Shown here: positions 13,801-54,355 of the stretch, one piece after another
Position numbering within the stretch: position 1 is the stretch's first letter
How the letters are laid out: each line of letters begins with the position of its first letter
NCBI GenBank assembly: GCA_030141605.1
Contig: JAQGDQ010000011.1
Coordinates: 1,050,066 to 1,114,065 of the forward strand
Length of the DNA stretch: 64,000 nucleotides
Reading direction: 5' to 3'
DNA from: Tubiluchus corallicola
Lineage: Eukaryota; Animalia; Priapulida
Program-made: the position numbers and the translations under genes
The notes under the pieces: model-generated
What the model was told of the DNA's origin: nothing
Database searches by the model: none
Seen by the model: the letters and a program-made list of their open reading frames with translations, nothing else

Positions 13801-14064
13801 GATAATGTAAAAGCCAGAAGTGTCCTAGCTACGTTAGTATCATTTATTTCTATTTAGAAACGTCAAAGGAAATTCGCAAGAACAGCATAAGAGGTGTTCT
13901 CTTCCGTCGCTTATATCGCCTATTTTAAAACTCTGACTAACAACTACATACCACTTTCCTGAATGTACTAAACCACGTTTACTGCAGTTATAATGTGCTG
14001 TATATAACTCTCTTTTAGCTTCAAGCAAATTACACGAAATAACAACACCTGAAACGTCCGCCAT
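1892..14064 (-). CDS. CDC23: Cell division cycle 23 / APC8, TPR subunit of the anaphase-promoting complex; 14 exons, about 575 aa
   Basis: Exons (minus): 14064-13952, 12993-12906, 12363-12232, 10773-10731, 10044-9945, 9380-9248, 8013-7836, 7625-7446, 6236-6072, 5943-5835, 4695-4558, 4071-3993, 3823-3707, 2044-1892. All introns are GT-AG with consistent phases (1728 nt total). Diagnostic peptides: [115 protein letters not shown]. Confidence 0.97.
3180..3515 (+). repeat. Dispersed repeat, also present at about 17880-18305
   Basis: Shared blocks taactggtgga, tgaat..cgtcatt, gggagcac/aaatgtgaa and agaaggcttg.cc. Confidence 0.65.
6421..6592. repeat. Minisatellite, about 3.5 copies of a 48-bp unit
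   Basis: Unit ctagctaatgcaaagaattaagttgagtaaatgattactttggaacca, in a CDC23 intron. Confidence 0.85.
6799..7102. mobile_element. Palindromic non-autonomous element with an internal tRNA-like segment
   Basis: Inverted termini ttaatcagagtatgactgcaaa...tttgcagtcataatctgattaa, extending about 55 bp. The internal minus-strand segment ctagctcagctggcagagcatgaga...gtgttcaagtcc carries A and B boxes. Confidence 0.65.
8135..8820. mobile_element. Degenerate MITE-like element with inverted terminal regions
   Basis: atgcgtgaaccgtaatgcat...gtttccatg near 8170-8230 is inverted relative to catggaaac...atgcattgcggatcacgtat near 8758-8800. Confidence 0.5.
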
Positions 14065-18300: not shown

Positions 18301-21300
18301 AAATGTGTTGCTTAAGAAATTTTGTCTGGGTATTTCTAGACATATTCTTCATTTCTAATTTGATAAAAATGGTTTGGCACACAGCAAATCGGTATTCAGT
18401 ATAAACTTACGACAAACTTTAAATGTAATTGGTGGCAGGACTTGCTCACTCTAGGTCACTATCGAATAAAGTCCTGTAATGTGATGTACTGAGCTACCAA
18501 AAGTGTACAATGCATCTTATCGAATTGTGTATGATATGTGTTCTTAAGCTAAATATCAGGAAGGCAGTGTAGCAGATGAAACCGTCCACAATAAATTTCG
18601 TGATGGTTATGCATCCATGTACTAACCAGGCCCAACACTGCTTAATTTCGTTCGCTAAACACACATCGTGGCAACTAACTCCTTTCCTTCTTATGTGTTA
18701 TATATTTATTCCTGTCTGATCATTAACTGTGCTCAGTGATACAGTGATTGGTACAGTTTACATAATGTTTTTGTTGAATTTTAGGGTGAGATTAGAGATG
18801 TTAACACTAAACTGCAGCAGTCTGGATCATCTCTCATTGAAAAAGCCAGCGATGTCATATCAGCTCAGCAAGTACAGATGAACATCACTTGTACAATAGA
18901 GCGTTTGCAAATATGTCTTCCTGGTAAGTGATGTTTGCTAGAGCCCTGCAACTGCTGTATCAGAACTGTGGAACAACTCAACATGTTTTTATACATTCTG
19001 TATTTTGCAAGCTGCTAACCTAACACTTAATGAAGATGATTGTGGTAGGAACAAAACTCAATTCTAATCTTCTAAGGTGAAACACTGAATTGACATAGGA
19101 GTTTTAGCCTTGTTCACTTGTGCATTGAGTGTCCCTCAGCGAAATTCAGAACTGGGTGGGAGTATGGCAGATTTATCGATCTGCCATGCATTTACTGATC
19201 GGGCTTGATGTTGCCTAACTTTGGCTGTTGATCGTGCACTGTTACCAGCCCATCTATATCTAACGGTTAAATACATTAAGTGAAACTTTTGCACACTACC
19301 TGATGACTGTCTCTCAGTTTTGGTATTTGCTGACATTTTTGAAGCAGCGTCTGTAATGTCAATGACACAGCGATAAGCTAAAGTTGCCATAGTAAAATAA
19401 TTGAAGTAATTTATGTGACCTATGTGTTTTTATAATTTTGTAGACTCGTTTATTTTTACATTAAATGGCCCACACATTCAAACGATTGTTTAATTATCAT
19501 TTTAACTAAACTAAAGACAGGTTATGGTTTACCAAATTAAAAGAACACATGTTTACTTAATACATATTGTTATTTTTTTAGTTCTATCCATGTACGGAAA
19601 GCTCAAGGAACAGATGAAGAATAAAAGGTTTGAATTTACGTAATGTTTATCATAATTTAGAGAACAGTTGACTTCTGTGTGCTAACTGAGGGTCTGAATC
19701 ATGGAGATTAAAGAACTGTTTGTGTAGGTAAAATATTATCGCGAACCTGGGGCCGATTTCACAAAGCCATCATTATTACATTCACTTAACTATTAATAAC
19801 GATGTCGTCAGGTTAGTGATGGTTTTGTGAAATTGGGCCCTCATTTAAAATTAATCTACCCACACAACTTAAGGTGCACTGTAGTAATAAGTATATCGCT
19901 TGTGTAATATGGATGCTCTTTTTGAATGCATGATGACGTCTGTGTCCTAATTGCCTGTGTACCATGGTAGTTGTCATCTAGCTTGAAGACGGGGGGCATT
20001 TGGAAGTCACATCTGAAGTACAGTTTTGAATCTGTGAGCTTAAAGCCAGTGAGCTTAAAGCTTTGTGAATTTGGATTATCAGAGAATTTTGGAAAACAGA
20101 AATGACCTGGTGACTTTGAAGCTTCATACTGTTAATGACGAGAGAACAAACAGTTCTTGCCAGTTGAATGTCTGGATTTGAATATGAATCTGTCTGAGTT
20201 TCCTGTCGACAAATGAACGTTCAGAGAATCAGAAATAAATGCACGGCTTCGACACGAGAGAGTTCTATCAGCAACAACAAAAACTGTGCCATATTAACTC
20301 TTCTGTGCAAAAACTGTAACAATGTGTATTATCAAATATTTAGAGAATAATGGGGTGACCCAAAATACTAGTATAATACTTACATTAATAAAATTTTAAC
20401 AATGAAATTTTCAGCTGCAGCAAGTTGTCGCTTAACGACATTAATGCGTTCCAGCAAAACACGCCGTTAAGCGAAACGTCGCTAAATGAAATATTGCTTT
20501 CCCTAAGAAATAACGTAAAAGCATTCAATTGCATTCCAGGACCAAAAATCAATAGTGCTTGGCTAATTAAAAGGGATCAGTTACCTACAGCAGAACAAGA
20601 AGCATTTTCTATATAAAATCCTTCAGTAACATTGCAGGAGAAAAATCAATAAGGCTTAGCTCCTAAATTAACTAAGTAGATTGCTTACAGTTCTACATTA
20701 CGTATTCGTTTAACTAGAAAGCTAATGAGTAACTAAAGCATGAAAACTAAAATCATATTTGAAACATAGGTTCTGCCTCCTCTGGTGCTTTCTTTCAGTT
20801 ATTTTTTCTCCCTTTCTATCTCCTTTTTTCATAAAAATCATTGGTTGGCTGCTTAAATTTTTTTCTTTTACATCCACTTCCTTATAACACTGCATTGCAT
20901 TTGCTATGTCCCATCTTACTTTCGAGTTACGTTGTCTATCGTTTTCATTGTTGTGCTTGCCAGGTACAGCTAAAATGGAAATCAGGTAAATGCAGCTATT
21001 AACTGTTTAGGAGAGTTTTATCAACCAGAGGAATTTTATCTAAACGAGGGAAAACACTGAATTATGAAAACACTGAATGATTGTGATCTGCCTAGCTATG
21101 CATAAGTGCCCAGTCACCAGATGGTTTAGTATAGTGGTAATGCACCCACCTTTCGTCTGGGGGGTTGTTAGCTCGATACAGCAGCAGGATCATATCAAAT
21201 TCTTTGAAAATAGTACTTGCTGTTGCCCTACCTGCCGCAAGGTATTTTGAGTAAAAGTGGGGTAATAATAGTCTCTGTTATGTAATTGTAGATTGTTATT

Positions 21301-24300
21301 TACAGTCGGCCCAAAAGCACTTTGGAGTTTATGTTAATTGTTGATTCAAAAGGCCGACTTTAAATATAAATTTTTATTATTGTGATTTATTTATTTAGTT
21401 GGGCAAATTACTACCTGTCTACTAACCATACTGTGATCTGGGTTAAATGACGGGCTTCATTTGTAGAGTGGAAATGCAGTAAACAAGATTTAGTATACAA
21501 GATAAAGTTGTTGTTAAAATGAAGTATGCGACAGCAATTAATGCATTATTTAAGCATTGTAGCCCAATTTGTGAATTATCGACGTCATAATCTGGATATC
21601 AATATTAATTCTATGTCAGTGGCTGTTTTAAATATCTTATCATAATAATATAGTAACTAAAAGCATTACATTGAAAGAAGGTGTCACAGCACCCGGTTCT
21701 TTCAATGTAATGCTTTTAGTTACTACATAGTTTCAGTGTAACAATGTAATATTTCAAAATGGTCAAGGGTTGCAAAGGGCCACCCTTAATATTCTCGAAA
21801 GGGACTATCAGACCGTGAGAAAACTGTTGAGAAACAAATTTACACCCGTAAGTGCAAGGTTCGGCTAAAAAATGCCTTTTGGCTGCCAGACTAAAGACTA
21901 GTACATTTATGATAACAGATGTGTCTAGCAACCAACAGGGTAGTATACTCTTACACGTGCTGAATCAATTTCTTGCTGTTAATTTCTTTTGCTTGTGCGT
22001 AATGGCTTTGATTGTGTTGAAACCTCCTTTATGAGGCACAGACCTTGTGAACCCAACACCTTCATTTTTGTGCATGGTGCTAGTGAAGCAAACAAAGCTG
22101 TCTAAGCCAGTGCATACCTCTGACAAAATTTTCAAAACTAAGCTGCTCATGTGATGCTTTTGCATTGCACTTTCGCATTTTTGGCGTATTATAATAGATT
22201 GTATAATGTAATGTAGCTAAAACAACAAATTGTTTTCATACCTCATCTTTTACCTTAAATTCTCTCTTGACAATAGCATGTATGTTAATCTTTTTGTCTC
22301 ATTAATGGTTTGCTCATTGTTGTGTTTTCTTCTGCTGAAACAGTTGTAGCGAAAACAATAGATCCTATTTGAAAACGTCATAATTTTATCTTTTTTGTGT
22401 AGAATTTACCACTAATCTTCTTATCTTGTTGTAACAGTCTACATCAATGTATGTAATCACATTTTTAAGTTAATCTTTGAAAGACTGTTTTGTTTGTGGA
22501 CATATTATTGCTTTACTAGGAATGACATAGTCAATATGACAAACATTCTTATTTATAATATGTGATCCAGTTTTTACTATTCAAAACTTGTCAATATTCA
22601 CAATAATAATCTAGTTTGCTGTGTCTTATTAGTTTCTGAAAAGCATATATACTGGCTAACAGTTTTCGTTTTACTTCACGTATGTCGCCTCAACGTCGTT
22701 TTGAATGTGGAAGATACTGAAAGGAGACACACCTGGCAGTTGCTTGTTGACACAACAAATGATACACAAGATGAATATGTAATGAAATGCAGTGTCTGTT
22801 ATTTACTTTACTGATTCTCTTAATTATCAGTCAGTATGCCAGTTGCCCTCTTTTTTATATATAATTATGTGCATGGTGCATGTGTTGCAAACTTGTGAAG
22901 CATCTAAGCATCTTGTAATAAGTTGCGCTTTCCAGTCAAGTGATGTGGCAGAATACATTTTTACATCAACTGATAAAAACTGGGAATACAGAAAAACTAG
23001 GTAAAATGTCATAATTGGAAATATTTGCCTATAAGACTGCTTACTCTTTCAGAGAAATATTTTGTCCCAGAAAAGATTAGACTGAGCTAAAATAAATATA
23101 GGTGATTATGTGCCTTAATGCACATTATCGTTATGAGAAAAGAAGATTAATTGTTCATTTTAGACTGAAAAGGCAGCTTACAATAAAACAATGATGTGAT
23201 GTGCGAAAACAACCTTTTTAGTGATGCTATGACATATTGCTGAAAATGTGAAAGCGCAGTGATTGCCATTTTATCAAAGCTTTATTCTAAGCAAGGTTCA
23301 CTGTTGAAGTTTTATAAATCTCAGGATGTCATTTCTTGTAACAACTAATTCTATGGATGTTGGCAGAGAGAGCAGCACAATTGAACATAAACTTGGTCCA
23401 TCAGTTTAGTGTAACCAAACAGTAGATGACAGACATCCTGAAATGTATTTTATTAACGGATCCTTTTAAGAATTGACATTGGGAAAACTTCAAGTGTAAT
23501 AGTTTGAAGTAATAGACATTTCGGATTAAGAACATGAATATGGAAGGTTCGGCTGCTGCTAATCTATCTTTTGATAGCAGTTATAGTCTAGGCACCAGCT
23601 CATTTTTAAAAATAATAGCATCGCTTTTGCTGCTCACAGATTTTGCCATTGTCGTAGGTAACTTACTTGTATTGATGACAGTTTACAAGTGTGAAGAATT
23701 ACAGACAAGAATGAACATGCTTATTGTGTCACTAGTATGTGCTGACCTATTGGCTGGTCTGGCAATTCCTATTGAAGTTGCTGCTTTACTGAGACCGAAT
23801 GATCGACTTCAAGTTGGACTCTATAGTGGGATTTTTGCAGCTTGGGCTTGTGACACAAGTCTGTATCATCTGTATCTAATAGCCGCTGAAAGATATGTGG
23901 CAGTTGTACATCCTTTTAAATACTATTATGTGACAAAGAAACTGTTGGCAATGTTAATATTTTGTGCATGGATAACTGCATTAGCCGGATCACTTGTACT
24001 TTACTTGCTGCAAGATCCGAAACAATCAGTATTGTTCCTTAACGTGTATTTCGTTTTTTTCTTCTACATACCCGCAGTAATAATGGTAATTTTATATGTG
24101 TTGATATGGAAGACAGCCAGAAGACTTGTTCTACAGATTCATCCAGAAGATCCTCAAAGTGGTGCAACCATAAGAGAAATGAAAGCAACAAGAACCGTTG
24201 GTATAATCACAGTGGTGTTCTTCATCTGCTGGTGTCCTCTTTTGCTCTATCCATTTATATTATCATTTCTGAGAACTTGTCGGGATCATACTTGCTACTC

Positions 24301-26734
24301 ACATGAAGGCGTCATCTTGGTTTGGCTTGCTTACACGAATAGTGCACTGAATCCACTTATTTATGGAGCATCAAATAGTGCATTTAGAAAAGCATTTAAA
24401 AAGATTTTAAAATACGGTTAATCTGTGGTCATATTCTTATGTCCATTGATTTTAGTAAGTCTCTGTACTGCATAGTGCAGACCAAATTGTAGAACATTAC
24501 TCAAGAGCTAGCAAGACTAATTTGACAACTTAGAATTCAACTTGAAGAACCATAAGTTGAAATCTTCATATGCATGAATAGTTAGCAAGTGTGTGGCATA
24601 CAATACACGTGTATTTGTTAAATTATTAAAATTTAAATAACTTTCTGTTACTAGTGTGTTAATCATGTCTTTTGAAGGTTTATCAATATTGTGTGACGTT
24701 ACTAAACTTTCTGCACAGTTGTTAAAATAAATAACGCTGTTGTTGTTGTTGTTGCTGTTGCTGTTGTTGTTGCTGTTGTTCTTGTTGCTGCTGCTGCTGC
24801 TGCTACTGTTGTTGCTGTCATTGTTAGGTCCCCTGTTGTTGTTGTTGTTGCTGTTGCTGCTGCTGCTGCTGCTACTGTTGTTGCTGTCATTGTTAGGTCC
24901 CCTGACTTTCCAAGTCGTGCCGTCATGCAGTGTTCGTCGTTCGTTCACCATTTGCATTTAAGCCAGTTAAACATGAACCACTTACGGTGGCTTTGAGTTT
25001 TTTGGTATGGAGTAGCTTGGGGACAAAATCATGATCAAAGTCAAAGGTCATGGCAAGGGCATATCCAGGACAGAGGTAAACACACAGAATCTCAACAAGC
25101 ACGGTAATGATGGATCTAGTGGACTGATCTGATTCAGGTCAATGCAAGAAATTAAAGTGGGACCTCTGACCTGCTGATGACACCTATAGACAATTTTTTT
25201 TTACCCCTCTCTTTGGTGGATTCAGGAGTTAGAAGAGTTTGAGTCAGCTAATTGCGACAATCCAACAATGACAAAAGAATTTTAATCCCTCTCCCAGAGA
25301 GAGCATATATGGGATTCTGGCAATTGCAAGTATAGCGTTATAAAGGCAAGTTTTGTCCCGCAAAATGTCAAGTATATATGTTAGGCGATGGTGTAGAACT
25401 TTTGGGTAATTCCATTTAGTGACCATGTGACAAAGATATGACTGTCGAATGGGGCCAAAAACATCAACTGCGTGAAATTTGGACACGAAAATTATTTGAC
25501 CCTGTTTGACCTGGAAGCGCTGCTGGGAAATTATTTCTTTGCCTACCTTTATTGCCTATGAGAATTTGTGAACTAGTGAAAAAATGAATTAGGTCAGGTG
25601 CTAGGTAGCTGTTATAACTGTTACTATTACAATAGCATGGGCTGCTAGGTGTTGTCACAGGTGTACACAAATGCATTGTCTGGTACACTCAAGGCTTTTT
25701 CATGATCAGCATCAATCTCTTGAACTGTGAAAAGGTTTATTATAAACATTTTTCTTATTACTGTCTTTATTAATATTGCACATGATTAAAGCCGTGTTTA
25801 CTAGACGACCAATGTTATTACATATGTAATTTGCATTCTATACATAAAATCACATTATATAGTTTTTAACACACCCGGTTATCACACCTCTGTTATTGTA
25901 TTCATGTTATTGTGTATTGGAGCTTAGGGATGCAGAAAAACCTCAAACTCTCTGTAAGTGATTCTGCCAAAGGGTCTTCGGATAAAAGAGATACAAGACT
26001 ACAAAATACTATTGTATGGCGATGAAGCAGCCTTGATTAAATAATATGTATTCCATTCCACATGTCTGGTAAAATCGCAAACGTAATTTACTTTTGAGGC
26101 TATTTCACAAGTGTTTTTATGCACCCCGATTGATTAAATAACCCATACGCACAATAACACTCATACAATCTGATACTCTAGAAAATGCGGTTTAGCAGTT
26201 TGCTTGTATAAGCTTAAACATAAAACTTTATAACATTAACATTATACATAAAACTTATCACTAATTTCTTTGATTAATACTAGTTACACGAAAATCACAT
26301 GGAAATACAATTTGGCTTTGTGAATAGATAAATTAAGGGCTTCTGTATTTGCATTATTAATATATGGTTTAATAAAATCATGTACATTTAATTTATGTGA
26401 CATTTGCTATTACTGACCTCTAGTGATCCACTTCAGTATTTTAAATTAGACCAAATCATGTGTTTCGAGTATTATTAATAACAGAGATAATGCACTTATA
26501 TATTAGATGACATAAGACACTGCATAATAAAATTTACAACTCATGCAGATGTTTGGCATATGGAAAAGTACTAGGATTCATTGGTAAAAAATTAATATCT
26601 GTATGTCATGATAAGCAAAAATTACTTAATCCCCACAGTATTTTACCAATCTAGAATCTAGTCTTTATATCAAAGCTTGGTAGTCAATATACGCAGAATG
26701 ATAAGTTACCATTGTATTACATTTAAATCAGTAG

Positions 26735-26789
<55 letters not shown>

Positions 26790-29700
26790 CCACTGTGACC
26801 TGGCCCACCTGAGTTGTTAAAGAAATATTTTCTAGATAAATATTGGACATTGAATTTGGGATACTTATTCTTTGTAAATTTTATGCACATGCTTTAATTT
26901 TGGTTCCATATTCTTACTCAGTTGTATTCACATATACGCATACAAAGTTTTCCACATACCTAAAGCATCATTTGTGTTTAAGGGAACTAATAAGCTTAGA
27001 TCGTCTGCATATACCCAAATGTGCCACAGAAAACTCCAGCAATATATTACAACCTTGACCTGATATTTGCAACTGCCTAAAGTTGCAATAATGCTGAACA
27101 CAATAAGACAATAACAAGTTTTGTAATTTATACCTGCGACAGCATGTTAGCATGAAGTGAGCCGGCTATTGTACTTCAAAATATGAAAAGGACTTTGTGT
27201 ACAAGAAAGGTACAAAGATATACTGAGTTACATGAACAATTAAAAGGCTTAGTATCAATCATATGTTCAAATTTGATTCGAATGAGTTTGTTTAGTTCAA
27301 ATTCGATATGAATCTAAATTTATAGATTCGAATAATTCAGCATTTCAGCCACATACATTCTTTATCATTAAAATGTTTGAAACAGCGTGCAATTTTGCTG
27401 CAGTTTCTGTGCAGAATTTTCAACACACTAATAGTTTTCTTACTGCAGAACACAATCAAATAATACGCATAATCTTTCTTTACTAGTCTTTACTAGTGGT
27501 TCGAAAACTTGTTCGGAAATCTTTCAAACTCAATTCGAATTTGATTCGGTTTCAAAATACCAAAATTCAGTTCGATTCGAATTCAAAAATCACAAATTCG
27601 ATTTGATTCGAATTTGCCTTCTGGTAGAGTAACAGCTACAAGCCTGCAACTTGCAAAATAGCTGCAGCTAAATGGATGCGTGGAAACAACCATGTGATTT
27701 CACTGTGAAATAAACTGTCTTGCTGTATGAGATCTTGAGAAAAAGTGACAAATTTTCTGATTTGCTGACAGCAATTCCATGCATCATTTTCCTTGCATAC
27801 TCACTGTGAAATGGGCATTATTTTTATAAGTCTCCATACTGCAAAGTGCAGACTAGGTCATAGAACATTACCTACCTAATGGCTAGCAAGCCAAATTCTA
27901 CGACTAACAAGTTTGCTGTTTCTAACTTGAAGAACTATAAATTGAAATCTTCATGTGCATGAATGGTTAGTAATGTGTGGCAAACAATACACATGTATTT
28001 GTTTAATTATTAAAATTTAAATAACGAACTTTCTATCAGTAGTATGCTAATCGCGACTTCTGAAGATTTTTTGACGTTGTCAAACGTTATTAAACTTTCT
28101 GCACAGTAGCTTAAATAAATAATGTTGTTGGTGTTTTTTGGGGACCTTATCCCATCATGCAGCATCTGTCGTCTGTTCACAATTTGTGTTCAAGCCATTT
28201 GTACCTGAACCACTTTGGGTGGCCTTGAGGTTTTTGGCCTAGAGTAACTTTGAGACAGAATCATAGTCAACGTCATAGGTCATGCTGAGGGCATATCCAG
28301 AATATGGGTAACATGTAGAAACCTCAACAACTGCACAGCAATGATTGACATAGTGGACGGATATGATTCAGCTTAATGCAAGAAATTTAAGTAACCTCTC
28401 ACCTACTGACAACCCAACATAGATAAAAAGAATTTTACCCCTCTTCTTAGTGGATCAGGAGTAAAGAGTTGAGTCTGCTCAGAGCAAGAATTAGAATGAT
28501 GTGTCGCCGGTTGACAATCCAACATTGATAAAAATCGTTTAATCTCCTCTCCTAACCGGATTCTAATGGTTGCAAGTATAGCGTTATAAGGGCAGGTTTT
28601 GTCCTGCAAAATGTCAAGTGTAGTTGTTGGCGATGGGCAAGAACTTTTGGATAATTCCATTCAGTGACCGTGTGACAAAGGTAAAAATGTCAGATGTGCC
28701 AAAAACACCAGCTGCATGAAATTTGGACATGAAACCATTTTACTCGTTTGACCAGGATTGCTGCTGGGAAATTAGTTCTCTGCCTGCTTTTATTGCCTAT
28801 CAGAATTTATGAACCAAATTTGACCAAAAAGGAATGATTTTGTGTCAAACGTCAAGACGGTCTAGGTATCAAACATGAGAATCAGGGGACCTAGAGCATC
28901 ATTGATGCTCTGGTTGTTGTTGTAGTTGTTGTTGCTGGTAAGGGCTGCCTAGCAAAAATGGTTTCAATTATAAACATTGTTCTTATTATCATCATTATTA
29001 ATATTGTACCAGTTTAAAGCTACGTTTACTAGACGACCGATGCTATTGCTTATGCGATTTGCATTATAGATATAAAATCAATTTATATTATTTTTAATGC
29101 ACCCGGTTATCACACCTCCATTATTGTATTCGTGTTATTGTGTGTTGGAGCTTAGGGATGCAGAAAATCCTTTTACTTTCTGGAAGGGCTTACAGAAAAA
29201 GATCATAAAATGCTTTTGCGCATCTGTGAAAATCTAATCTGTAACTAATCACAAAGTTTGGTGATCGTAACTCATAATAAGCAGAATAAAAAGTTTCCAT
29301 TATATTACACCTAAGTAATATAATGTATTTTCACAGGTGTAGCTAAAACAATAGATCCTTTTTGAACGTCATGATTTTATCTTTTGTGTGTAGAATTTAC
29401 AATAATCTTCTTATCTCATTGTAACTGTCTACATCAATGCATGTAATCACATTTTTAAGTTAATCTTTGAAAGACTGTTTTGTTTGTGGACATATTATTG
29501 CATTACTAGGAATGACGTAGTCAATATGACAAACATTATAATATGTGATCCAGTTTTTACTATTCAAAACTTGTCAACATTCACAATAATAATCTAGTTT
29601 GCTGTGTCTTATTAGTTTCTGAAAATCATATATACTGGCTAACAGTTTTTATTATGTATGTCGCCCTAGCATTATATGTGATGTGCCAGACACTGAAAGG

Positions 29701-32700
29701 AGACCTAACTGGCAGTTATTGGCTGAAATAACTAATGATATCCAAGATGTAATGAAATGAAGTGTCTATTATATTACCTTACAGATCCTCTTAATTATCA
29801 GTCGGTATGCCAGTTGCCCTCTTTTTTATATATAATTATGTGCATGGTGCATGTGTTGCAAACTTGTGAACCATCTAAGCATCTTGAAATAAGTTGCGCC
29901 TTCCGGTCAAGTGATGTGGCAAAATACATTTTTACATCAACTGATAAAAACTAGGAATACAGAAAAACTAGATAAAATGTCATAACTGGAAATATTTGCC
30001 TATAAGACTGCTTACTCTTTCAGAGAAATATTTTGTCCCAGAAAAGATTAGACTGAGCTAAAATAAATATAGGTGATTATGTGCCTTAATGCTATGAGAA
30101 AAGAATCGTTACCATTATGAGAAAAGAAGATTAATTGTTCATTTTAGACTGAAAAGGCAGCTTACAATAAAACAATGATGTGCGAAAACAACCGTTTTAG
30201 TGACGCTGTGACATATTGCTGAAAATGTGAAAGCGCAATGATTGCCATTTCATCAAAGCTTTATTCTAAGCAAGGCTCACTGTTGAAGTTTTATAAATCT
30301 CAGGATGTCATTTCTTGTAACAAGTAATTCTATAGATGTAGGCAGAGAGAGCAGCACAAATGAACATAAACTTGCTGCATCAGTTTAGTGTAACCAAACA
30401 GTAGATGACAGACATCCTGAAATGTATTTTATTCACAGATCCTGTTAAGAATTGACATTGGGAAACTTCAAGTGTAATAGTTTGCAGTAATAGACATTTG
30501 TGATTAAGAACATGAATATGGAAAGTTTGACTGCTGCTAATCTATCTTTTGATAGCAGTTATAGTCTAGGCGCCAGCTCATTTTTAAAAATAATAGCATC
30601 ACTTTTGCTGCTCACAGATTTTGCTATTGTCGGCGGTAACTTACTTGTATTGATGACAGTTTACAAGTGTGAAGAATTACAGACAAGAATGAACATGCTT
30701 ATTGTGTCACTAGCATGTGCTGACCTATTGGCTGGTCTGGCAATTCCTATTGAAGTTACTGCTTTACTGAGACCGAATGATCGACTTCAAATTGGACTCT
30801 ATAGTGGGATTTTTGCAGCTTGGGCTTGGGACACAAGTCTGTATCATCTGTATCTAATAGCCGCTGAAAGATATATGGCAGTTGTCCATCCTTTTAAATA
30901 CTATTATGTGACAAAGAAACTGTTGGTAACGTTAATATTTTGTGCATGGATAACTGCATTAGCCGGATCACTTGTATTTCACTTGCTACAAAATCCGGAA
31001 CAATCAGAATTGTTCCTTAATGTGTATTTAGTTTTTTTCTTCTACATACCTGCAGTAATAATGGTAATTTTGTATGTGTTGATATGGAAGACAGCCAGAA
31101 GATTGGTTCTACAGATTCATCCGGAAGATCCTCAAAGTGGTACAACCATAAGAGAAATGAAAGCAACAAGAACCGTTGGTATAATCACAGTAGTGTTCTT
31201 CATCTGCTGGTGTCCTCTTTTGCTCTATCCATTTATATTATCATTTCTGAGAACTTGTTGGGATCATACTTGCTACTCAGATGAAAGCTTCATCTTGGTT
31301 TGGCTTGCTTACACTAATAGTGCACTGAATCCACTTATTTATGGAGTAGCAAATAGTGCATTTAGAAAAGCATTTAAAAAGATTTTAAAATGCGGTTAAT
31401 CTGTGGTCATATTCTTATGTCCATTGATTTTAGTAAGTCTCTGCACTGCATAGTGCAGACCAAATTGTCAAACATTACTCAAGAGCTAGCAATGCTAATT
31501 TGACAACTTACAACATTACCCAAAAGCTAGTAAGGCTAATCTGACAACTTACAATTCAACTTGAAGAACCATAAGTTGAAATCTTCATATGCATGAATAG
31601 TTAGCAAGTGTGTGGCATACAATACATGTGTATTTGTTAAATTATTAAAATTTAAATAACTTTCTGTTACTAGTGTGTTAATCATGTCTTTTGAAGGTTT
31701 ATCAATATTGTGTGACGCTACTAAACTTTCTGCACAGTTGTTAAAATAAATAACACTGTTGTTGTTGTTGTTGTTGTTGCTGGTGCTGCTGGTGCTGCTA
31801 CTGTTGTTGCTGTCATTGTTAGGTCCCCTGACTTTCCAAGTCGTGCCATCATGCAGTGTCCGTCGTTCGTTCACAATTTGTGTTTAAGGCAGTTAAACAT
31901 GAACCACTTAGGGTGGCTTTGAGTTTTTTGGTATGGAGTAGCTTGAGGACAAAATCATCATCAAAGTCAAAGGTCATGGCAAGGGCATATCCAGGACAGA
32001 GGTAAACACACAGAATCTCAACAAGCACAGTAATGATGGATCTAGTGGACTGATCTGATTAAGGTCAATGCAAGAAATTAAAGTGGCCTCTCACCTGCTG
32101 ATGACACCTATAGACAAAATTTTTTTACCCCTCTCCTTGGTGGATTCAGGAGTTAGAAGAGTTTGAGTCAGCTCTATGCGGCAATCCAACAATGACAAAA
32201 GAATTTTAACCCCCTTTCCCAGAGAGAGCGTATATCTGATTCTGACAATTGCAAGTATAGCGTTATAAAGGCAATTTTTGTGCCGCAAAATGTCAAGTAT
32301 ATATGTTAGGCGATGGTGTAGAACTTTTGGGTAATTCCATTTAGTGACCATGTGACAAAGATAAAACTGTCGAATGGGGCCAAATACATCAACTGCGTGA
32401 AATTTGGACACGAAAATTATTTGACCCTGTTTGACCTGGAAGCGCTGCTGGGAAATTATTTCTTTGCCTACCTTTATTGCCTATGAGAATTTGTGAACTA
32501 GTAAAAAATGAATTAGGTCAGGTTCTAGCTAGCTGTTATAACTGTTACTATTACAATAGCATGGGCTGCTAGGTGTTGTCAGGTGTACACAAATGCGTTG
32601 TCTGGCACACTTAAGGCTTTTTCATGATCAGCATCAATCTCTAGAACTGTGAAAAGGCTTATTATAAACATTGTTCTTAATACCGTCTTTATTAATATTG

Positions 32701-33686
32701 TACATGATTAAAGCCGTGCTTACTAGACGGCCAACGTTATTACAAATGTAATTTGCATTTTATACATAAAATCACATTATATAGTTTTTAACACACCCGG
32801 TTATCACATCTCTGTTATTGTATTCATGTTATTGTGTATTGGAGCTTAGTGATGCAGAAAAACCTCAAACTCTCTGTAAGTGATTCTGCCACGGGGTCTT
32901 CAGAAAAAAGAATACAAAATACTATTGTATGGCAATGATGTCGTCTTCTTCAAAGCATGAGTGCAATGAAGCAGCCTTGATTAAATAATATGCATTCCAT
33001 TCCACATGTCTGGTAAAATCGCTTGCGTAATTTATTCTTGAAGCTATTTCACAAGTGTTTATATGCACCCCGATTGATTAAATAACCCATACGCACAATA
33101 ACACGCAAATCTGATACTCTAGAAAATGCGGTTTAGCAGTTTGCTTGTATAAACATAAAACTTTATAACATAAACATCATACATAAAACTTATCACTAAT
33201 TTCTTTGATTAATACTAGTTACACGAAAATCACATGGAAATAAAATTTGGCTTTGTGAATAGATATATTAAGGGCTTCCGTATTTGCATTATTAATATAT
33301 GGTTTAATATAATCATGTACATTTAATTTATGTGACATTTGCTATTACTGACCTCTAGTGATCCACTTCAGTATTTTAAATTAGACCAAATCACGTGTTT
33401 CTAGTATTATTAATAACAAAGATAATGCACTTATATATTAGATGACATAAGACATTGCATAATAAAATTTGCAACTAATGCAGATGTTCGGCATAAGGAA
33501 AAACTTAAGTACTAGGATTCATTGGTAAGAAATTAATATCTGTATGCCATGGTAAGCAAAAATTACTTAATCCCAATATTCCCCACAGTATTTAACCAAT
33601 CTAGAATCTAGTCTTTATCACAAAGCTTGGCAGTCAATATAAGCAGAATGATAAGTTACCATTGTATTACATTTAAATCAGTAGAT

Positions 33687-33738
<52 letters not shown>

Positions 33739-36700
33739 CCACTGTGACCTGGCCCACCTGAGTTTTTAAAGGAATATTTTCTAGATAAGTATTTGACATT
33801 GAATTTGGGATACTTATTCTTTGTAAATTTTATGCACGTGCTTTTAATTTTGGTTCCGTATTCTTACTCCATATTATTCACATATGTGCATACAAAGTTT
33901 TCCACATATCTAAAGCATCATTTGTGTTTAAGGGAACTAATAAGCTTAGATCGTCTGCATATACCCAAATGTGCCACAGAAAACTCCAGCAATATATTAC
34001 AACCTTAACCTGATATTTGCAACTGCCTAAAGTTGCAATAATGCTGAACACAATAAGACAATAACAAATTTTGTGATTTATACCTGCGACAGCATATTAG
34101 CATGAAGTAAGCCGGCTATTGTACTTCAAAATATGAAAAGGACTTTGTGTACAAGAAAGGTGCAAAGATATACTTAGGTACATGAACAATAAAAAGGCTT
34201 AATATCAATCGAATGTGAAATTCGATTCTAATGAGTTTGTTTAGTTCAAATTCGATTCGAATCTAAACTTATAGATTTGAATAATTCAGCATTTCAGCCA
34301 CATACGATCTTTATCATTAAAATGTTTGAAACAGCATGCAATTAGTGCAATTTTGCAGTAGTTTCTGTGCAGAATTTTTAACAAACTAATAGTGGTTTTA
34401 CTGCAGAACAAAGTCAAATAATACTCATGATCTTTGTAAGACCAGTCTTTACTAGTGGTTCGAAAACTTGTTCAGAAATCTTTCAAACTCATTTCGAATT
34501 TGATTCGGATTCAAAATACCGAAATTCAGTTCGATTCGAATTCAAAAATCACAGATTTTATTTGATTCGAATTTGCTTTCTGGTAGAGAATGCTCACTAC
34601 TAATTGACAGTACGTGTAATGTGTCATTTAATTGGATTAACTTCAATGATGATTACCGACTCATCCAATGACTACAGCATAGAAAATCATCATTTTACAA
34701 GCTAATGGCATCATTAATTACCCTAATCATTTATAGTCGGCTTTTTGGTGAACATTTAACATAAGCTAGTTTTTGCCACCGACTGTAAATAACAAAATAC
34801 AACTACATAACAGAGACTACTATTGTCCCACTTTTACAACTAAATAGTTGTCCACGCCCCAAGCAGGACAACAGCAGGTACCATTTTTAAAGCCTTTGGT
34901 ATGACTGGCCGCTGTATTGAACTCATGACTCCCAAACAGAAATGTAACAGTCAGAACAACTTGTTTGTGTTGATGGCAGTTTACAAGTGCCCCAAGGGCA
35001 TGATATTGAAACCATAGCACATGCATCATTTCTTGGCCAGCTGAGATCAGATTCAACAAATCCATTCCACTGGCATTCCTTTCAAAACTCGAAGAAATCG
35101 CAAGCTTCAAAACTGATTTTCAGAATGTGGAGCATGGGGACACTTCTTATGCTAAACAATGCCGATAGGCTAGAACAATGTACAGTGCTTCTCTCCACGG
35201 AACAAATGAATGTCGACTTCGCATGCCTTGAATGAAACCAGTCTCTCAAGGGAAGAGAAATTTGAGGAGAATACCTCTGGATATATTATTTTGAGAAAGA
35301 ACAGAACAAAAAAGAATAAGTGAAGGAGTTAGTTTGCCATCAAATTCAATATCATTCCTGACTATTAGTTACCATTCATAACCATCAAAGGAATGCATGA
35401 TAACCCGGATCAGATTATTCTGTAGGCTAGGATTATCCACAGGCTGCAGCTTGGAGCCCTTCAAGCTTTGTTAACACTTGACAAAAAAAATCTGTTTTTT
35501 CACTATGGTTGTGTTGAAATATGTGCTAATTTTTGTTCTCAGCATTGTGCACTGTAAAGTCTTTTATTGTTTTTAATGCATCAAATTTCCTGTGTACATT
35601 TGCATTAATTTGTTAAATGGCAATAGATTGGATCATTATAGGTATTATAAGGACATTTCTTCTGTAATAAAAAGTCTTTTTTGTTTAATGGTGCCACTAC
35701 CAGTCTGCTAGAACATGTCTCAGAAATTTCCGCAGTCTGTGAGTCATGTTCATCATCAAAAATGGTACTTTCTTTCATTTGCAATGGTTACTGATACATT
35801 TTACATATGGATTATGACCTTTTCGGGCCCTTAGGTTAATGAAATGATAGGGCCTCCTCAAATGGAACCACCTTCTGACTCGCGTGGACCCGTCTTGTAT
35901 ATTTTTTACTCCAGATATATTTTTCGACATTTACATAACTTGAAATAAACTTATTGCAAATTCTTCAAATAAACTAGAATAGTTTTTTCTGTCAGTAAAA
36001 ATATTGTTTAAGAAATACCACTGTTTTACTATTTATGCTAACCAAATTAGCACATATTTTAACACAACCATAGTGAAAAATCGATTTTTTAACCAATGTT
36101 ACCAAAGCTTGAAGGCCTCCAAGCTTAAGGGTCCCCGGGCCACAGCCTATACTAGCCCATATGATAATCCCGCCCTGTATACTTCACAGTGCCAATCAGT
36201 CATGATTTCATTACACATCTACATTGTAAAGTGTGATATGGAAGTTTTTCCAGAAAACAAAAACAGATTATTGATGTATTTCTCAAGCAAACAGCGAAAT
36301 CCTGTGTGCAGATTTTATTGTATAGTAACATGATATGTCTAAAACGTGTTTTTCGCCTTTTAAAATCCCAAAGCTAGTACATAGCTGCTCAAAACATCAT
36401 TTTTACTTTGATACCCAAAGGACGTAATTTATTGTTAACTCGGTCAACCCGGTACCTTAATGCAACAATTGTCTAAAAATCTGTATTGTTTGTCTGTGTG
36501 CATCTTTAGCTGTTTAGTAGTTAGAGCATTAAGACAAATGCACTAGGCCTATTATAGTCATTCACATTTGGACGTTTAACAATCAATTCCCATTTTAGTT
36601 AAAGGTATTAAACGTCTTGAAATCTATGATAAAACAAATTTGAAGCAGAAATAGACGTTAATACTGAGCACATTAAATGATCGAATTTGCATCAGAGCAT

Positions 36701-39700
36701 TATCACAAATTAAAGCTAGCTTTTGAAAAGAGCACCGTGTTTTCAAGACATGTCAGTGATGAGCTTAATGTCAAATTATATTTCGCAATGCCTTTAGTAA
36801 TTCGAATGAATGGATAATTTTCCTTTTGCTGCGAGAATAATGTGAAGTTCGGTGCACAGTGTTAGGCTCTATCTGCATATTGAAAGACTGCAGAAAGATT
36901 TTGTATCTAATTTGTGTAGATACATAAAACTTTCATCTTGAAGACTAACAATGGAATATTTAAATGCAGAAACTTCGACAATGATTACCAATTCAAGTTA
37001 TTACCATAATGTAGAAGGATATTCATTTTATAATGTAATGGCATCATTATTCATGCTGTCAGAAGTTGCTCTTATCGGAGACAACTTGCTTGTGTTGATG
37101 GCAATCTACAAGTGTGAAGAATTACAAACAAGAATGAACATGCTTATTGTGTTACTAGCGATTGCTGACCTACTGCGGAGTTTGGTGTACAACGCACGGC
37201 AAAAAAGTTCGTTTCTAATTTCAAGCTTGAAGTTGAAATTGATATTGTTGATTTTTAACTACTAACACAATTTTATTATATAATATGATAACTGCAAAAC
37301 ATAAGTCTTTCACAAGCTACTAACAGCACTACTAAGCTAACTAAATACAATAGTAATGTTTTATAAATCGAGATGGCTGCTAGGTGTGACCATTATGGTC
37401 TTTGCCATCCCGTCTCAATGCAATTATAATTAACAGTGTGTAATTAAATAGTATATAAGCATATGGAATAAGACAAATAAACTAGACCGATATTGACAAA
37501 GATTAGTTTTATTTTCGCTGCATTACCATAAGAATTAATTTTAATATTAAGTAATATATAAGACAACATTGTAGTCGGAATTAGTTTTTCAAGCAACTGA
37601 CTAATGTACTGTGATTTTGTCAGCAATACAGGGGTTTACTGAAAATACATGGCACATTATACATGAACAAAGCTGTCTCTTTCATTTACTGAATTTATTA
37701 CAAGTCTTTGACATGCACTCATACACAATGAATTAATCTTGTGCTGTGGCCATTTGTTTATTTATAATGCCTGAAATTGTGCTTAATCTACCATTATGAG
37801 ACAGAGCATTCTAGTTAGTATGTTTAATCTGTTGAAACATATCTTTCAGTTTTCCATATTTGTGTGAATAAGTTTAATGATTACTGAATGAAAATGTAAC
37901 ATATGAAAAGAGCATTAATGTACAAGAACAAAGAGAAGAAATTCAAAGAAAATATGCTAAGATATTCCAACAATGATAAGCTTAATGTGACATTAACTAA
38001 AATTTAATGTAGAGATTTATGTACCTATACTACTTACCATTGTTTGAGCAAGAGCAGAGAAGAAAGTAAAGATAAGGCTGTTGCAAGACAAGGTTGTGCG
38101 GAGTTTGGTGTACAATGCAAGCCAGAAAAGTTCATTTCTAATTTTAAGTTTAAAGTTGAAATTGAAATTGAATAATACCAATAATAGAGTATTCAAATGA
38201 AGGAATTTCAACAATGATTACAAATTCAACTTATAACTATACTATAAAAGATCATTCGTTTTACAAGCTAATAGCATCATTGTTCATGCTGTCAGAATGT
38301 GCCATTATCGGAGGCAATTTGCTTGTGTTGATAGCAGTTTACAAATGTGAAGAATTACAGGCAAGAATGAATTTTCTCATTGTGTCACTAGCATTTGCTG
38401 ACCTATTGGCTGGACTGGCAATTCCTATTGAAGTCACTGTTTTATTGCTACCCGATTATTCCAGAATTAGGCTGATTCTTGAATGGTGTGTAAATCTTCT
38501 TTCCGACTGTAGCTGGATTGCGAGTGTGTATCATCTATATCTGATATCCATTGAGAGATATTTGGCTGTCGTGCATCCTTTTAAGTACTATATATACATA
38601 ACAAAGAGAGCTCTTGTTATTACAATAACTGCTGCTTGGATTAGTGCTCTTACTGGATCTGTTTTAATACATGTAATAAGTTTAATTAATTATATTAATT
38701 TAATTAATACATTTAATACTAGAGCCGGAAGAAGTGGAAATATATTTCAATTTTAGTTTGAATACTAGAGCTGGAAGAAGTGGAAATATATTTCAATTTT
38801 AGTTTGATTGTGTTTTTCTACATACCTACAATAGTAATGGTAATTCTGTATGGATTAATGTGGAAAACTGCTAGACAGCAAGTATTACGCATACACTCCA
38901 GCCGTGGTGAGCATAGTGCAACCATAAGAGAAATGAAGGCGACAAGGACTGTAGGTGCAGTAACAGAGACTTTTCTTGTTCTTTGGTGTCCATTCATGCT
39001 TTTGCCATATATGGGGAAAATTCCTAGCCATTGCTTGCTGGCACCCAGATGCTTTCCGCATTATGGTTTAATTTTCATTTGGCTTGCTTACACTAACAGT
39101 GCAATGAATCCACTTATTTATGCTGCATCAAGTAATGCTTTTAGAAAAGCATTTAAAAAACTTTTGAAATGCTGAAGTTGGTAGGCCGTGTTAGAGTGGT
39201 CAAAACCAATCTTGTTCAGGGACATATTATGCTTCATGCTTCCATTTCAGAATTACGTCCCGGGAGTCTCTCAATGTTACCTCGTGCTAATCACCAGTTA
39301 TTTCTAAAATGTGGGTATGTGTATCCTTGCGTGTGCTTTATTACATGATACCCAGTTGAAAATATGACAGGAGACCAATTTCAAGAAGTCTGGAAAAGAC
39401 ATACCATACCAATAATGCCAGATAATCGGCATTTCTATTTGATTGTTTTGCCTGCTACTTGATTAACTGAGTATTGATTTTCGTTATTTAATGAATCTTA
39501 TATGTGTTGACTTCCGTTGTACTTTAATTATTAATTATTACGTTAACTTTAAATGGGCCACACTTAAGCCAAAATCCACGTAAGTGACATGATAGTGGCT
39601 TACATACTCCTTTTTCAAAACCTCTTTTCAGTCTCTTTTGTCTTCTCCCAGACCAGCCAGTTCCTTACTGAGGCTAACTCTAAGCTCTTCCGTACTCGAC

Positions 39701-42700
39701 AAGCCATTTTCTCTCTTCAATAGCTTTATGCAATTTGCGACCTCAGGACCCCGATGTCTGATGTCTACACCAAACCTCTTTCTCTTTTTGAAATAGCTGC
39801 TACCGTCTGCAAGCTCCTTTCAGCTCGAATCTCTGACAGGATTTGCATTACTGCAAAAATATTGAAGGCACCTCTGAAACCCTCTCTCCCCGGCTTTCTC
39901 TCATTAACAGATTGATTAGGTCTTGCGTCTCTGTTCCTAACGATTGACATTGTTGCCTTATCACCTCTTTTTGTAAAAACAAAGGAGCTGTGGTAAGAAG
40001 TGCTTTCAGGAGCCTGGCAAAGGTCTGCTGCAACAAAGACTGACTGACTCCCGAACTACATCTTTTCCAACATTTGTGGGCTGTCAGTCATTGCAGTGAG
40101 ATGTAGATCCAAGCTGTGAACTCCCTCTGATACCCGGCCTCCTTTCATCAAAGTCGCCTGTGTGTGTTATGCTTGACATCTTCTGGTTTCATTTCGCCAC
40201 CAACAGAGACCTGTACCAACGTCGTGCAACATAACACTAGTGACCACCGAGTGCTTCTCATGTCTCCTTGGCCAAGAGGAGTGTCTGGGTGAATTCATCC
40301 TAGCCAGACAAGTTGTCTCTGTTGCCTTCCGTTCTCTTCCTTCAACTGGTTCTCTCCTTAGGTCACTCTCCTCTCAACTGCTTCCAACAGTGCTATACTG
40401 TCTTCTTTGCTGCCTCCTTGTGAATATTGTGAATACGCTAAACCCACTTCATCCCTAAGTATAAGCCCCCAGTTAATGATATGGTGGCAGGGTTTCTTTA
40501 AACACTATTTTATTCATCACTTTTCAATTTAAAGCAAAACCGGACCCAATCTTAAACTGTAGGTCAAAACAATATACTCCTTAAAATATTGAACAGGAAC
40601 ACACTATTTTTTCAAAAATGACTTACTAAAACTAGGCATGTTTTAAGATAAAAATTCAAATTTCAAATTTACTGCTGTGCTCACTCATGAGCTGTCAAAC
40701 GTGCATAGTTCGTCAGAAACTAACACAGCTGAACTGAGAGGTACATTACCTGTTTTTGTATAATGCGTTTCTGAAACATGTGCAATTATTTACTTTAATT
40801 TTTTTGCCACTATATAAAATCACACTTGTTCGAAATTAAATTAATATTATTATGACTCGTTGATTTACTTAAAAAATTGCAAATAATATGGACAATTTTG
40901 TACATTTTTATCCTGCTCAAAGTTTTCTGTATATTATTAACTCAAGGCTTTTAATAGATTTGACATCTGCAAGTATATGGAAATGTAGATACACGTAATT
41001 TATTGTATGATTCGATTTACCTTTGTGGTTTGCAAATCATTTTTGCAATGTTTTAAAACAAACTATTTTGTTTTGATTACCAATTATTTGTTTTGATATA
41101 TATACAAGTATCTTTAATTTGTAGATATTACCCAGCTCTAAAGACTCTTGAACAGCTAGAACACACGTATCTTCCTCGGGTCAGCGAATATCGGTTTACC
41201 AAACTTATGTATGATCAAATACCTAAGTTACGAGAGAACATAAAGAATGCTTCCATGTCAGACCTAAAGGATTTCTTGGAGAGCATTAGAAAATATTCCA
41301 GCAAAATCGGGGAAGTCGCCATGCGTCATGTAAGCTTTGTTAAATTTCTTTGAACGCCTATAACAGCATTAATTTCGAGTGAGTTCACTTAAGTTTAGAT
41401 GCTTGACTAGTTTGCTTAAGTGTACAGCAGCATTAAGCTGGAGTGTGTTAACTTAAATTTAGATGTTTGACCGGTTTGCACAAAGTCTTAGCAGAGCTTT
41501 CACCTTTGTCTTCAGAGATAGAATATTTAATCAACTTTGACTCCCCAGATAGAATAGAATTGATTCAATGAAATTTTGTTCGCAACTGAAAATTGTTTTG
41601 AGAAAACTGCCTGAAAGTCACTATTTCTTCAGACGAGTCTTAATCTGATGAACATCAGCTTTATGTGTGCATAGGGCACGAGCTTAGTTGATAGACTTAA
41701 ATGATGTGCAGTTACTTGTATAAGGCTGCTGTCTGTTGTACTACATGTATATATAAGTTAGTGACCAAGCACACTTATTTTGGTAATGAATATTCTTGCT
41801 AAACTTAATAAAGGGTGTTCTTAATCCAATTTAGTGATGTTGCTAGTTATTTAATATCAAACTAAATAATTTCAGGCAGCTGAACAGCACAGCATAGATC
41901 CAGGTCTGGTTAAAATGGTCCGACGAAAACGCAAAGCTCCACCTCCACCTAATCCGTTTACTGGCGAAGTGCCAAGTCAGTCAGATCCTGAACCGGATTT
42001 ATACGACGACCAAGACGAGGAATTGAGTGCTCAAGATCTAGTTGACTTTAGTCCAGTGTACCGCTGCTGGCATATATACACTGTACTTGTAAGTAGACAT
42101 TTTGCTGGCTAAGTGGTCTAACGCTTTTGAGTTTGAGATTGCTTAACTGGTTTGAAATTACTCTCATTTGATCTTTATCACTGTAGGTACAGTATGTCCT
42201 GCTTAAATAGTAAATATTTGATATAAATAACTCGTAATTAGGATTACTTCCTGTCAAATTCTTCCCTCATCACTTGGTTTTCTGATTAAATTAAAATAAG
42301 TGTTTTTGCTACTTCATACTTCTTCACAAAAGTGATATAGAGATGATCAGAGATGAGAATAGGTGTGTGTTTAGCAAGTTATATTTAAGCACTTTCACCA
42401 ATATCATCTTTATCGCCTTATTTCAAAATTAGTTTTATTTTGTGTGGTATGATTAAAAGAATAACAGCAATCTTTTCTGCAAGTTTTGCGCACGGTTTTG
42501 GCTATTGACATTTTACAACCTTTATAATAACTCTTTTGCCAATAGAGGACAGCGCCACTGTTTATTTTCACTAGTCAGATATTTGAAGTGTGCCTGGCTT
42601 TTGCAGGTATCATTGCTACTGGCATACACATCAATTAATTGCCATATTAAACATGACAGTAAAGTCTCATCATACTTTCCAGTCAGAATACCATTTTATG

Positions 42701-54314: not shown

Positions 54315-54355
<41 letters not shown>

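What the first reader, a model, noticed from the sequence alone, without database searches (positions are those of the whole stretch)
19628..41124. A GPCR gene family undergoing birth and death inside one EXOC6 intron, on the same strand as the host
Seen: EXOC6 exon 4 ends at 19627 (...KNKR) and exon 5 starts at 41125 (YYPALKT...). This 21.5-kb intron is far longer than any other in the gene (all under 3 kb). It holds five paralogous intronless GPCR loci, all on the host strand: intact 23534 and 30512, relic 34646, truncated 36951, frameshifted 38214. Established: nested genes are more often antisense to the host, and tandem arrays of short intronless class A GPCRs with many pseudogenes are typical of chemosensory repertoires. 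Inference: this is a lineage-specific receptor family, possibly chemosensory. Sense nesting means the host must read through the GPCR poly(A) sites, or the GPCRs may be expressed as alternative terminal exons of EXOC6 transcripts; the host donor AG|GTTTGA is weak.
Basis: partly seen in the sequence, partly recalled or inferred. Interest (0 to 1): 0.82.

Follow-up and report, generated by a model that had tools for sequence, protein, structure and literature searches.

The report
Receptor gene cluster inside EXOC6 intron
In what is likely a priapulid worm, one 21.5-kb intron of the housekeeping gene EXOC6 holds two intact and three broken copies of a small cell-surface receptor gene on the same strand; they likely arose by local duplication and may sense chemicals, an arrangement with precedents in other animals.

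Summary
EXOC6 is an intact 20-exon, 823-aa gene. Intron 4 is 21,497 nt (others 228-2,613) and holds five same-strand, intronless class A GPCR loci: two intact (91% identical), one with two frame-breaking insertions, one truncated, one relic. A sixth unit survives only as 3' flank. The copies form one clade from at least three duplication rounds (dS about 1.0, 0.4, 0.06); no ortholog was found (best hit 40%). They look amine-receptor-derived but lack Asp3.32, the TM3-ECL2 disulfide and most of ECL2. The host is probably a priapulid. Chemosensory use is plausible but untested. The special claims are weak. The shared strand is likely one inherited event, and same-strand nesting is common (Gpr21 in Rabgap1). 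Poly(A) hexamers are no denser than in other EXOC6 introns, and the donor is unremarkable. The exon-5 acceptor does score lowest of 19. No RNA data were available, so host splicing and chimeric transcripts are untested. The scan noted a similar antisense array in another genome (e1-9937406). Verdict: real, a new member of a known kind.

The parts
15345..19627 (+). EXOC6/Sec15 coding exons 1-4 (15345-15514, 16444-16609, 18785-18923, 19582-19627)
   Evidence: tblastn with homologs; joined ORF open
19628..41124 (+). EXOC6 intron 4, 21,497 nt, phase 2, GT..AG
   Evidence: the junction ...CKR-YYPALK is contiguous in the Priapulus caudatus protein model P0006
22340..27629 (+). Duplication unit A (about 5.3 kb), carrying g1
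   Evidence: 91-92% blastn identity to unit B; 2.7-6.8% substitutions in flanks
23534..24421 (+). g1: intact intronless class A GPCR, 295 aa
   Evidence: PF00001 E 2e-41; 7TM model, pLDDT 89.7; TM-score about 0.8 to beta1-adrenergic and A2A receptors
27816..29186 (+). Older copy of the GPCR 3' flank without a CDS (likely a sixth, dead unit)
   Evidence: 74-83% identity to 24444-25958, which starts 23 nt after the g1 stop; no CDS match
29333..34588 (+). Duplication unit B (about 5.3 kb), carrying g2
30512..31399 (+). g2: intact intronless class A GPCR, 295 aa, 91% identical to g1
34626..34990 (+). Relic GPCR 5' end, frameshifted and split by a repeat (34729-34923)
   Evidence: very high summed X1 depth in this bin
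36951..37175 (+). g4: truncated GPCR (N-terminus to TM2), followed by 74 nt like the g5 upstream region
38214..39175 (+). g5: full-length GPCR broken by a 40-nt insertion and a 46-nt tandem duplication
   Evidence: a contig of run X1 matches 38570-38781 with 0 differences
41125..57403 (+). EXOC6/Sec15 coding exons 5-20
   Evidence: PF20651 on exon 5

Best explanation
Intron 4 of an intact EXOC6 gene holds a tandem array of intronless class A GPCRs, two intact and three broken, that likely grew from one founder by local duplication and are likely transcribed from their own promoters in few cells, while the host likely splices across them as one long intron. Shown: the anatomy, the single clade, three depths of divergence, older purifying selection (dN/dS about 0.3) and the lesions. 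Inferred: a single intronless founder entered the intron in sense orientation, and unequal crossing-over made the copies (the youngest 5.3-kb units end in a dispersed repeat). Also inferred: the receptors descend from the amine-receptor branch, lost Asp3.32, the TM3-ECL2 disulfide and the ECL2 lid, and would bind a non-amine, probably hydrophobic small molecule. They would signal through a G protein, most likely Gs/cAMP, because the closest sequence and fold matches are beta-adrenergic, H2 and A2A receptors (their Gs coupling is recalled). I put chemosensory use at about 50%. Any interference with EXOC6 would be confined to receptor-expressing cells.
For: Intact host ORF with correct phases. 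Window receptors form one clade, SH-aLRT 100 on a 0.82 branch (42 sequences, raw tree). Best single-receptor hit among 1.84 billion representatives is 40% identical (P0127); the two word-index searches gave no closer full-length hit. dS: g1-g2 0.06, g4-g5 0.42, g1/g2-g5 1.0. dN/dS g1-g5 0.31 (95% CI 0.20-0.46) and g2-g5 0.30 (0.20-0.43). 16.8 of 21.5 kb of the intron lies within the array. D2.50, ERY, CWxP, NPxxY and helix 8 are intact. W7.40 and Y7.43 are kept; Asp3.32 and Cys3.25 are absent, against 113 and 106 of 140 scorable hits (149 examined, 9 without the motif). The TM4-TM5 loop is 3 residues in the model. 17 of 26 g1/g2 differences fall in the outer 132 of 295 residues (p=0.022). AATAAA density is 0.93/kb in intron 4 against 1.21/kb in the other introns. 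Precedents.
Against: No RNA evidence for any part: no RNA holder was listed (not evidence either way). g1-g2 dN/dS is 0.65 (CI 0.33-1.46, Fisher p=0.24), so present constraint on the pair is not shown. The outer-half enrichment used boundaries chosen after seeing the data and includes 4 N-tail changes. The family is small in this window, and genome-wide size is unknown (no genome held). Lophotrochozoan expansions have a long ECL2 (25-30 aa), unlike these. Placement beside the Asp3.32-bearing P0127/P0143 has only SH-aLRT 83 on a long branch. The exon-5 acceptor is the lowest-scoring of 19. Conservation of the nesting in relatives was not testable.
Confidence: 0.72

Rival explanations
1. Same anatomy, but the receptors are orphan receptors for an internal signal (lipid, nucleoside or paracrine molecule) or are constitutively active, and the broken copies are ordinary duplicate decay.
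For: Fold matches are adrenergic and adenosine receptors. Atlas look-alikes include melanocortin-receptor-named clusters. Only 2 intact copies in the window. No significant excess of replacements. Gpr21/Gpr52 are nested orphan GPCRs.
Against: No ortholog found, whereas endogenous-ligand receptors tend to keep one-to-one orthologs (passage). 3 of 5 loci are broken. Differences lean extracellular.
Confidence: 0.35
2. The receptors are expressed through the host: EXOC6 exons 1-4 splice into the array as alternative terminal exons, giving EXOC6(1-174)-GPCR fusions or truncated EXOC6, so the array regulates exocyst dosage.
For: Acceptors at +44, +47 and +53 in both g1 and g2 are in frame with exon 4 and would give 451-454-aa fusions with all seven helices. 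A strong acceptor (9.7, among the top 4 of 1,141 AGs) lies 364-370 nt upstream of both. The exon-5 acceptor is the weakest in the gene. In humans, 22 of 53 same-strand nested genes were judged host exons.
Against: In-frame acceptors score 3.5-4.5, matched or beaten by about 60-100 AGs in this intron. The strong acceptor gives a stop at 183 aa, with 8-11 ATGs before the receptor start. Each gene has its own ATG and N-glycosylation site, and g1/g2 have a TATA-like motif at -220. A soluble 174-aa head would have to cross the membrane ahead of TM1 (inference). The splice matrix rests on 19 introns only.
Confidence: 0.12
3. The whole family is dying: g1 and g2 are open only because the duplication is young and are no longer under selection.
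For: g1-g2 dN/dS is not distinguishable from 1; CDS divergence of 4.4% lies within the flank range of 2.7-6.8%. Three or four other units are dead.
Against: No indel or stop in either 885-nt CDS, against 24 gaps over about 4.1 kb of aligned flank. All activation motifs are intact. dN/dS to g5 is 0.3.
Confidence: 0.12
4. Assembly artefact: the array is misplaced into the intron, or g1 and g2 are two haplotypes of one gene.
For: No listed contig bridges a host exon to a receptor, and exon 5 is uncovered in run X1.
Against: Host exons flank the array in order and phase. Units A and B differ by 3-7% plus gaps, while X1 contigs differ from the window by about 0.5% (6/1155, 4/915, 2/795, 3/674). X1 contigs tile 38570-40512 with gaps of 1-2 nt. 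X1 may be the source sample and is not independent.
Confidence: 0.04

Closest known systems
[quoted passage not shown]
   Same: Tandem, species-restricted class A GPCRs with full-length, truncated and pseudogene members, no one-to-one orthologs, variable extracellular halves, no TM3-ECL2 disulfide. Annelid members have an ECL3 disulfide; g1/g2 have C249 and C254 in ECL3.
   Different: That study covers Lophotrochozoa only (0 mentions of Priapul- or Ecdysozoa). Its ECL2 is 25-30 residues, against about 3 here. Nesting is not discussed (0 mentions of 'intron' in the main text).
Gpr21 in Rabgap1 and GPR52 in RABGAP1L (PMC4813635 passages; PMC11694760 supplement rows)
   Same: Orphan class A GPCR nested in an intron of a vesicle-trafficking gene. 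Gpr21 is on the same strand as Rabgap1, and a cassette inserted in Gpr21 cut downstream Rabgap1 mRNA 5-15-fold.
   Different: Single conserved genes, not a birth-and-death array.
TAS2R cluster inside PRH1 transcripts; P2RY12 inside MED12L (PMC11694760 supplement rows)
   Same: GPCR genes listed as nested in a host. That TAS2Rs form a chemosensory array on the PRH1 strand, and that the P2RY12 cluster is antisense, is recalled; the table gives no strand.
   Different: The PRH1 host row is a processed (non-coding) transcript, not an intact housekeeping gene; the receptor families differ.
Vertebrate TAAR/TARL olfactory receptors (PMC8890504 passages)
   Same: Amine-receptor-derived chemoreceptors; clade III lost Asp3.32.
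   Different: Clade III gained Asp5.42, absent here (Tyr or Ser). The TAAR TM7 motif (NSxxNPxxYxxxYxWF) is not met. They do not group with TAARs.
H13/Mcts2 transcriptional interference (PMC13309782, abstract only)
   Same: Model for how transcription of a nested gene can cause premature termination of its host.
   Different: Imprinted mammalian retrogene; no such effect was tested here.

Membership tests
Class A (rhodopsin-like) GPCR | PF00001 match above cut-off and 7TM fold with D2.50, E/DRY, CWxP, NPxxY, helix 8 | tested here: met
Biogenic amine receptors | Asp3.32 | tested here: not met
   Ala, Ala, Ser in g1, g2, g5
Biogenic amine receptors | Trp7.40 and Tyr7.43 (signature recalled) | tested here: met
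   W264, Y267; 117 and 123 of 156 aligned hits share them
Biogenic amine receptors | Cys3.25-ECL2 disulfide | tested here: not met
   Gly/Gly/Glu at 3.25 and no Cys between residues 145 and 231 in g1/g2. g5 has a Cys at 3.27.
TAAR/TARL | TM7 fingerprint, Asp3.32 or Asp5.42, clade membership | tested here: not met
Lineage-specific class A GPCR expansion | Monophyletic paralogs, tandem, no one-to-one ortholog, mix of intact and broken copies | tested here: met
   limited to window copies and the proteins these searches reach
Lineage-specific class A GPCR expansion | Genome-wide expansion size | not testable with these tools
   no genome held
Chemoreceptors | Excess diversification of the ligand-facing half | tested here: inconclusive
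   17 of 26 differences in 132 of 295 residues, p=0.022 post hoc; dN/dS CI spans 1
Chemoreceptors | Expression in sensory cells and activation by external chemicals | not testable with these tools
   no RNA holder listed
True nested genes (own promoter, host splices across) | Lie wholly within one intron of an intact host ORF | tested here: met
True nested genes (own promoter, host splices across) | Independent transcription start; exon 4-5 junction in mRNA | not testable with these tools
   no RNA; indirect only (TATA-like motif; junction contiguous in a Priapulus model)

The most novel reading that the evidence does not exclude
Priapulids independently turned an amine receptor into a lidless, non-amine chemoreceptor family, a protostome parallel to vertebrate TAARs. 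The array is wired into EXOC6, so that receptor transcription or exon-4 splicing into it truncates the exocyst subunit in sensory cells or makes an EXOC6-GPCR chimera, coupling receptor choice to secretion.
Probability: 0.08. Interest if true: 0.7.

Novelty: new member of a known kind. Interest (0 to 1): 0.3.

Why it matters
If chemosensory, this is a candidate GPCR chemoreceptor family from an early-branching ecdysozoan group that the large protostome survey did not cover and for which my two priapulid searches listed no such study. The near-identical pair g1/g2, differing at pocket positions such as 3.36 (Cys/Trp), is a compact system for testing ligand shifts. It is also a natural case of an essential gene carrying an intron grown several-fold by same-strand duplicates. 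Each ingredient has precedent, so the interest is modest unless RNA shows coupling to EXOC6.

Tried and rejected
No whole genome is held, so genome-wide counts and synteny were impossible. No RNA holder was listed; this is no evidence on expression. Run X2 (RNA only by guess) laid only short pieces, none of those listed on an exon or receptor (13 and 6 records), so it is uninformative. X1 differences at 38327-38378 looked like an extra paralog, but all 9 match g1 bases, so they are cross-mapping. An X1 joint skipping 30693-30934 could be another paralog but rests on one contig. Word-index searches found only distant receptors (5 hits among 3,187 candidates; 31 among 7,996). No tRNA or Rfam match in the window. 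The minus-strand ORF at 25247-25555 has no Pfam match. Rescue of g5 by splicing: 20 frame-restoring GT/GC..AG pairs exist. The most plausible (38673-38770, 98 nt, donor 5.2) would give 287 aa, but its acceptor scores -0.8 and a better AG lies 2 nt upstream, out of frame; unlikely, not excluded. Ultrafast bootstrap did not run, so the tree has SH-aLRT only; g4 was left out of it. FastTree supports after re-rooting were not relied on. Ten paper searches listed no paper on GPCRs nested in EXOC6/Sec15; the library lacks most subscription journals. PMC13637037 passages held nothing relevant. Sequence and place look-ups in earlier findings were blank.
Full report
Host gene. tblastn with six EXOC6 homologs placed exons across 15345-57403. 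After refining the boundaries, 20 coding exons join into 823 aa with one terminal stop; 18 introns are GT-AG and one is GC-AG. Intron 4 (19628-41124, phase 2) is 21,497 nt; the other 18 are 228-2,613 nt. The most identical of 120 homologs is Priapulus caudatus (81.5% over 585 aa; the next is 66%), so the animal is probably another priapulid. Earlier AI notes on this genome reached the same view (unchecked). The P. caudatus model has the exon 4-5 junction contiguous. No genome is held.

The array. g1 (23534-24421) and g2 (30512-31399) are intact 295-aa PF00001 proteins, 91% identical. They sit in 5.3-kb units (22340-27629, 29333-34588) that are 91-92% alike, and both units end in a dispersed repeat also found at 59169 (high X1 depth). 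g5 (38214-39175) is full length but carries a 40-nt AT-rich insertion and a 46-nt tandem duplication. A contig of run X1 matches 38570-38781 without a difference, covering the first lesion and 21 nt past the duplication junction; X1 may be the source sample. g4 (36951-37175) stops in TM2. The relic (34626-34990) is real by a shuffle test (63 against a maximum of 32 in 500) and is split by a repeat. The array spans 16.8 of the 21.5 kb.

History and selection. dS is 0.06 for g1-g2, 0.42 for g4-g5 and 1.0 for g1/g2-g5, which points to at least three duplication rounds. dN/dS to g5 is 0.30-0.31 with intervals below 0.46. For g1-g2 it is 0.65 (0.33-1.46), not distinguishable from neutrality, although neither CDS has an indel while the aligned flanks have 24 gaps in about 4.1 kb. 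Of 26 g1/g2 differences, 17 lie in the outer 132 of 295 residues (p=0.022, boundaries post hoc). X1 contigs differ from the window by about 0.5%, several-fold less than the units differ from each other, which argues against uncollapsed haplotypes.

The receptors. An exhaustive search found 2 proteins at E<1e-30. One is a double-7TM mite protein at 32%; the best single receptor is an unnamed 40%-identical protein, P0127. Named hits among 20 looked up are amine-, adenosine- or melanocortin-like receptors from many phyla, none a priapulid. In a 42-sequence tree g1, g2 and g5 form a clade (SH-aLRT 100), loosely joined to P0127 and P0143 (83), both of which have Asp3.32 and Cys3.25. The window receptors keep the activation motifs, W7.40 and Y7.43, but lack Asp3.32 (present in 113 of 140 scorable hits) and Cys3.25 (106 of 140). 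Their W4.50-P5.50 span is 34 residues against a median of 45, and the TM2 proline is one residue early. The model is a confident 7TM bundle (pLDDT 89.7) with a 3-residue ECL2, closest in fold to beta1-adrenergic and A2A receptors (TM about 0.8). Atlas look-alikes are short cnidarian class A clusters and melanocortin-named clusters. Two ECL3 cysteines (249, 254) could form a loop disulfide (inference). They work like class A receptors, probably derive from the amine branch, but fail membership of amine receptors and TAARs (criteria in PMC8890504, passages).

Same-strand nesting. Tandem copies inherit orientation, so five same-strand loci are likely one event. PMC3192792 (passages) reports 53 of 158 human protein-coding nested genes as tandem, 22 of them probably host exons. 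PMC11694760 (section 5) finds only a slight antisense bias, with nested genes favouring the largest and 5' introns. Mouse Gpr21 lies same-strand in a Rabgap1 intron (PMC4813635, passages), and TAS2R31, GPR52 and P2RY12 are listed as nested (supplement rows). AATAAA and ATTAAA are no denser in intron 4 (0.93 and 1.02/kb) than in the other introns (1.21 and 1.27/kb), so read-through of such sites is routine for this gene; suppression by U1 snRNP is the recalled mechanism. The intron 4 donor is 5th-lowest of 19. Against my reading, the exon-5 acceptor is the lowest of 19, and a strong acceptor lies 364-370 nt upstream of g1 and g2. Splicing exon 4 to it gives a stop at 183 aa. Three in-frame acceptors in the receptor N-tail would give 451-454-aa fusions but score no better than about 60-100 other AGs. 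The matrix is trained on 19 introns and is rough. The strong acceptor could equally belong to the receptors' own 5' UTR intron (inference).

Mechanism. Best reading (0.72): one intronless founder in sense orientation, tandem birth and death, independent and cell-restricted expression, host spliced across. Any interference would follow the H13/Mcts2 pattern (PMC13309782, abstract only). Chemosensory use is about even odds. The profile matches the lineage-specific expansions of PMC11886862 except for the very short ECL2. Rivals are an internal-ligand orphan receptor (0.35, compatible with the same anatomy), host-coupled expression (0.12), a wholly decaying family (0.12) and mis-assembly (0.04). 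Nothing about expression was shown: no RNA holder was listed.

Verdict. Real and accurately described, but each element has precedent, and an earlier scan note describes a similar antisense array in Owenia (unchecked). Ten paper searches listed no report for EXOC6 or for priapulid GPCR expansions; bioRxiv supplements and subscription journals were not visible. New member of a known kind; interest 0.3.

Noticed in passing
window 1900-14064, - strand: CDC23/ANAPC8 gene (PF04049 E 1.5e-10 and TPR hits) lies head to head with EXOC6, with start codons about 1.3 kb apart; likely a shared bidirectional promoter.
   Followed up: partly
window 50853-51080: EXOC6 intron 15 uses a GC donor (TAG|GCAAGT).
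   Followed up: yes
window 15301-15316: An acceptor-like CCTCAG 28 nt before the EXOC6 ATG suggests a non-coding first exon, so 'exon 4' is the fourth coding exon.
   Followed up: no
window 33605 and 29273: One X1 contig (depth 13) runs from 33605 (paralogous to about 26655) through 31 other letters to 29273, and another carries g1-like bases at 30434 and 30437: a weak hint of copy-number variation or gene conversion in the array.
   Followed up: partly
window 38673-38770: A possible 98-nt intron over both g5 lesions would restore a 287-aa receptor; the acceptor is poor.
   Followed up: partly
window 21170-21365 and 34729-34923; 27295-27477, 34244-34597, 59169-59371; 40526-40750: Short dispersed repeats with very high summed depth in run X1 (SINE- or MITE-like by inference); no tRNA or Rfam match.
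   Followed up: partly
P0126: The top database hit is a mite protein with two 7TM units in one chain, probably two tandem genes fused in annotation.
   Followed up: no
window 60290-60390: An exon-like stretch after EXOC6 (..ttaacag, then a short coiled-coil-like frame, then a GT donor) may be a further gene or an alternative exon.
   Followed up: no
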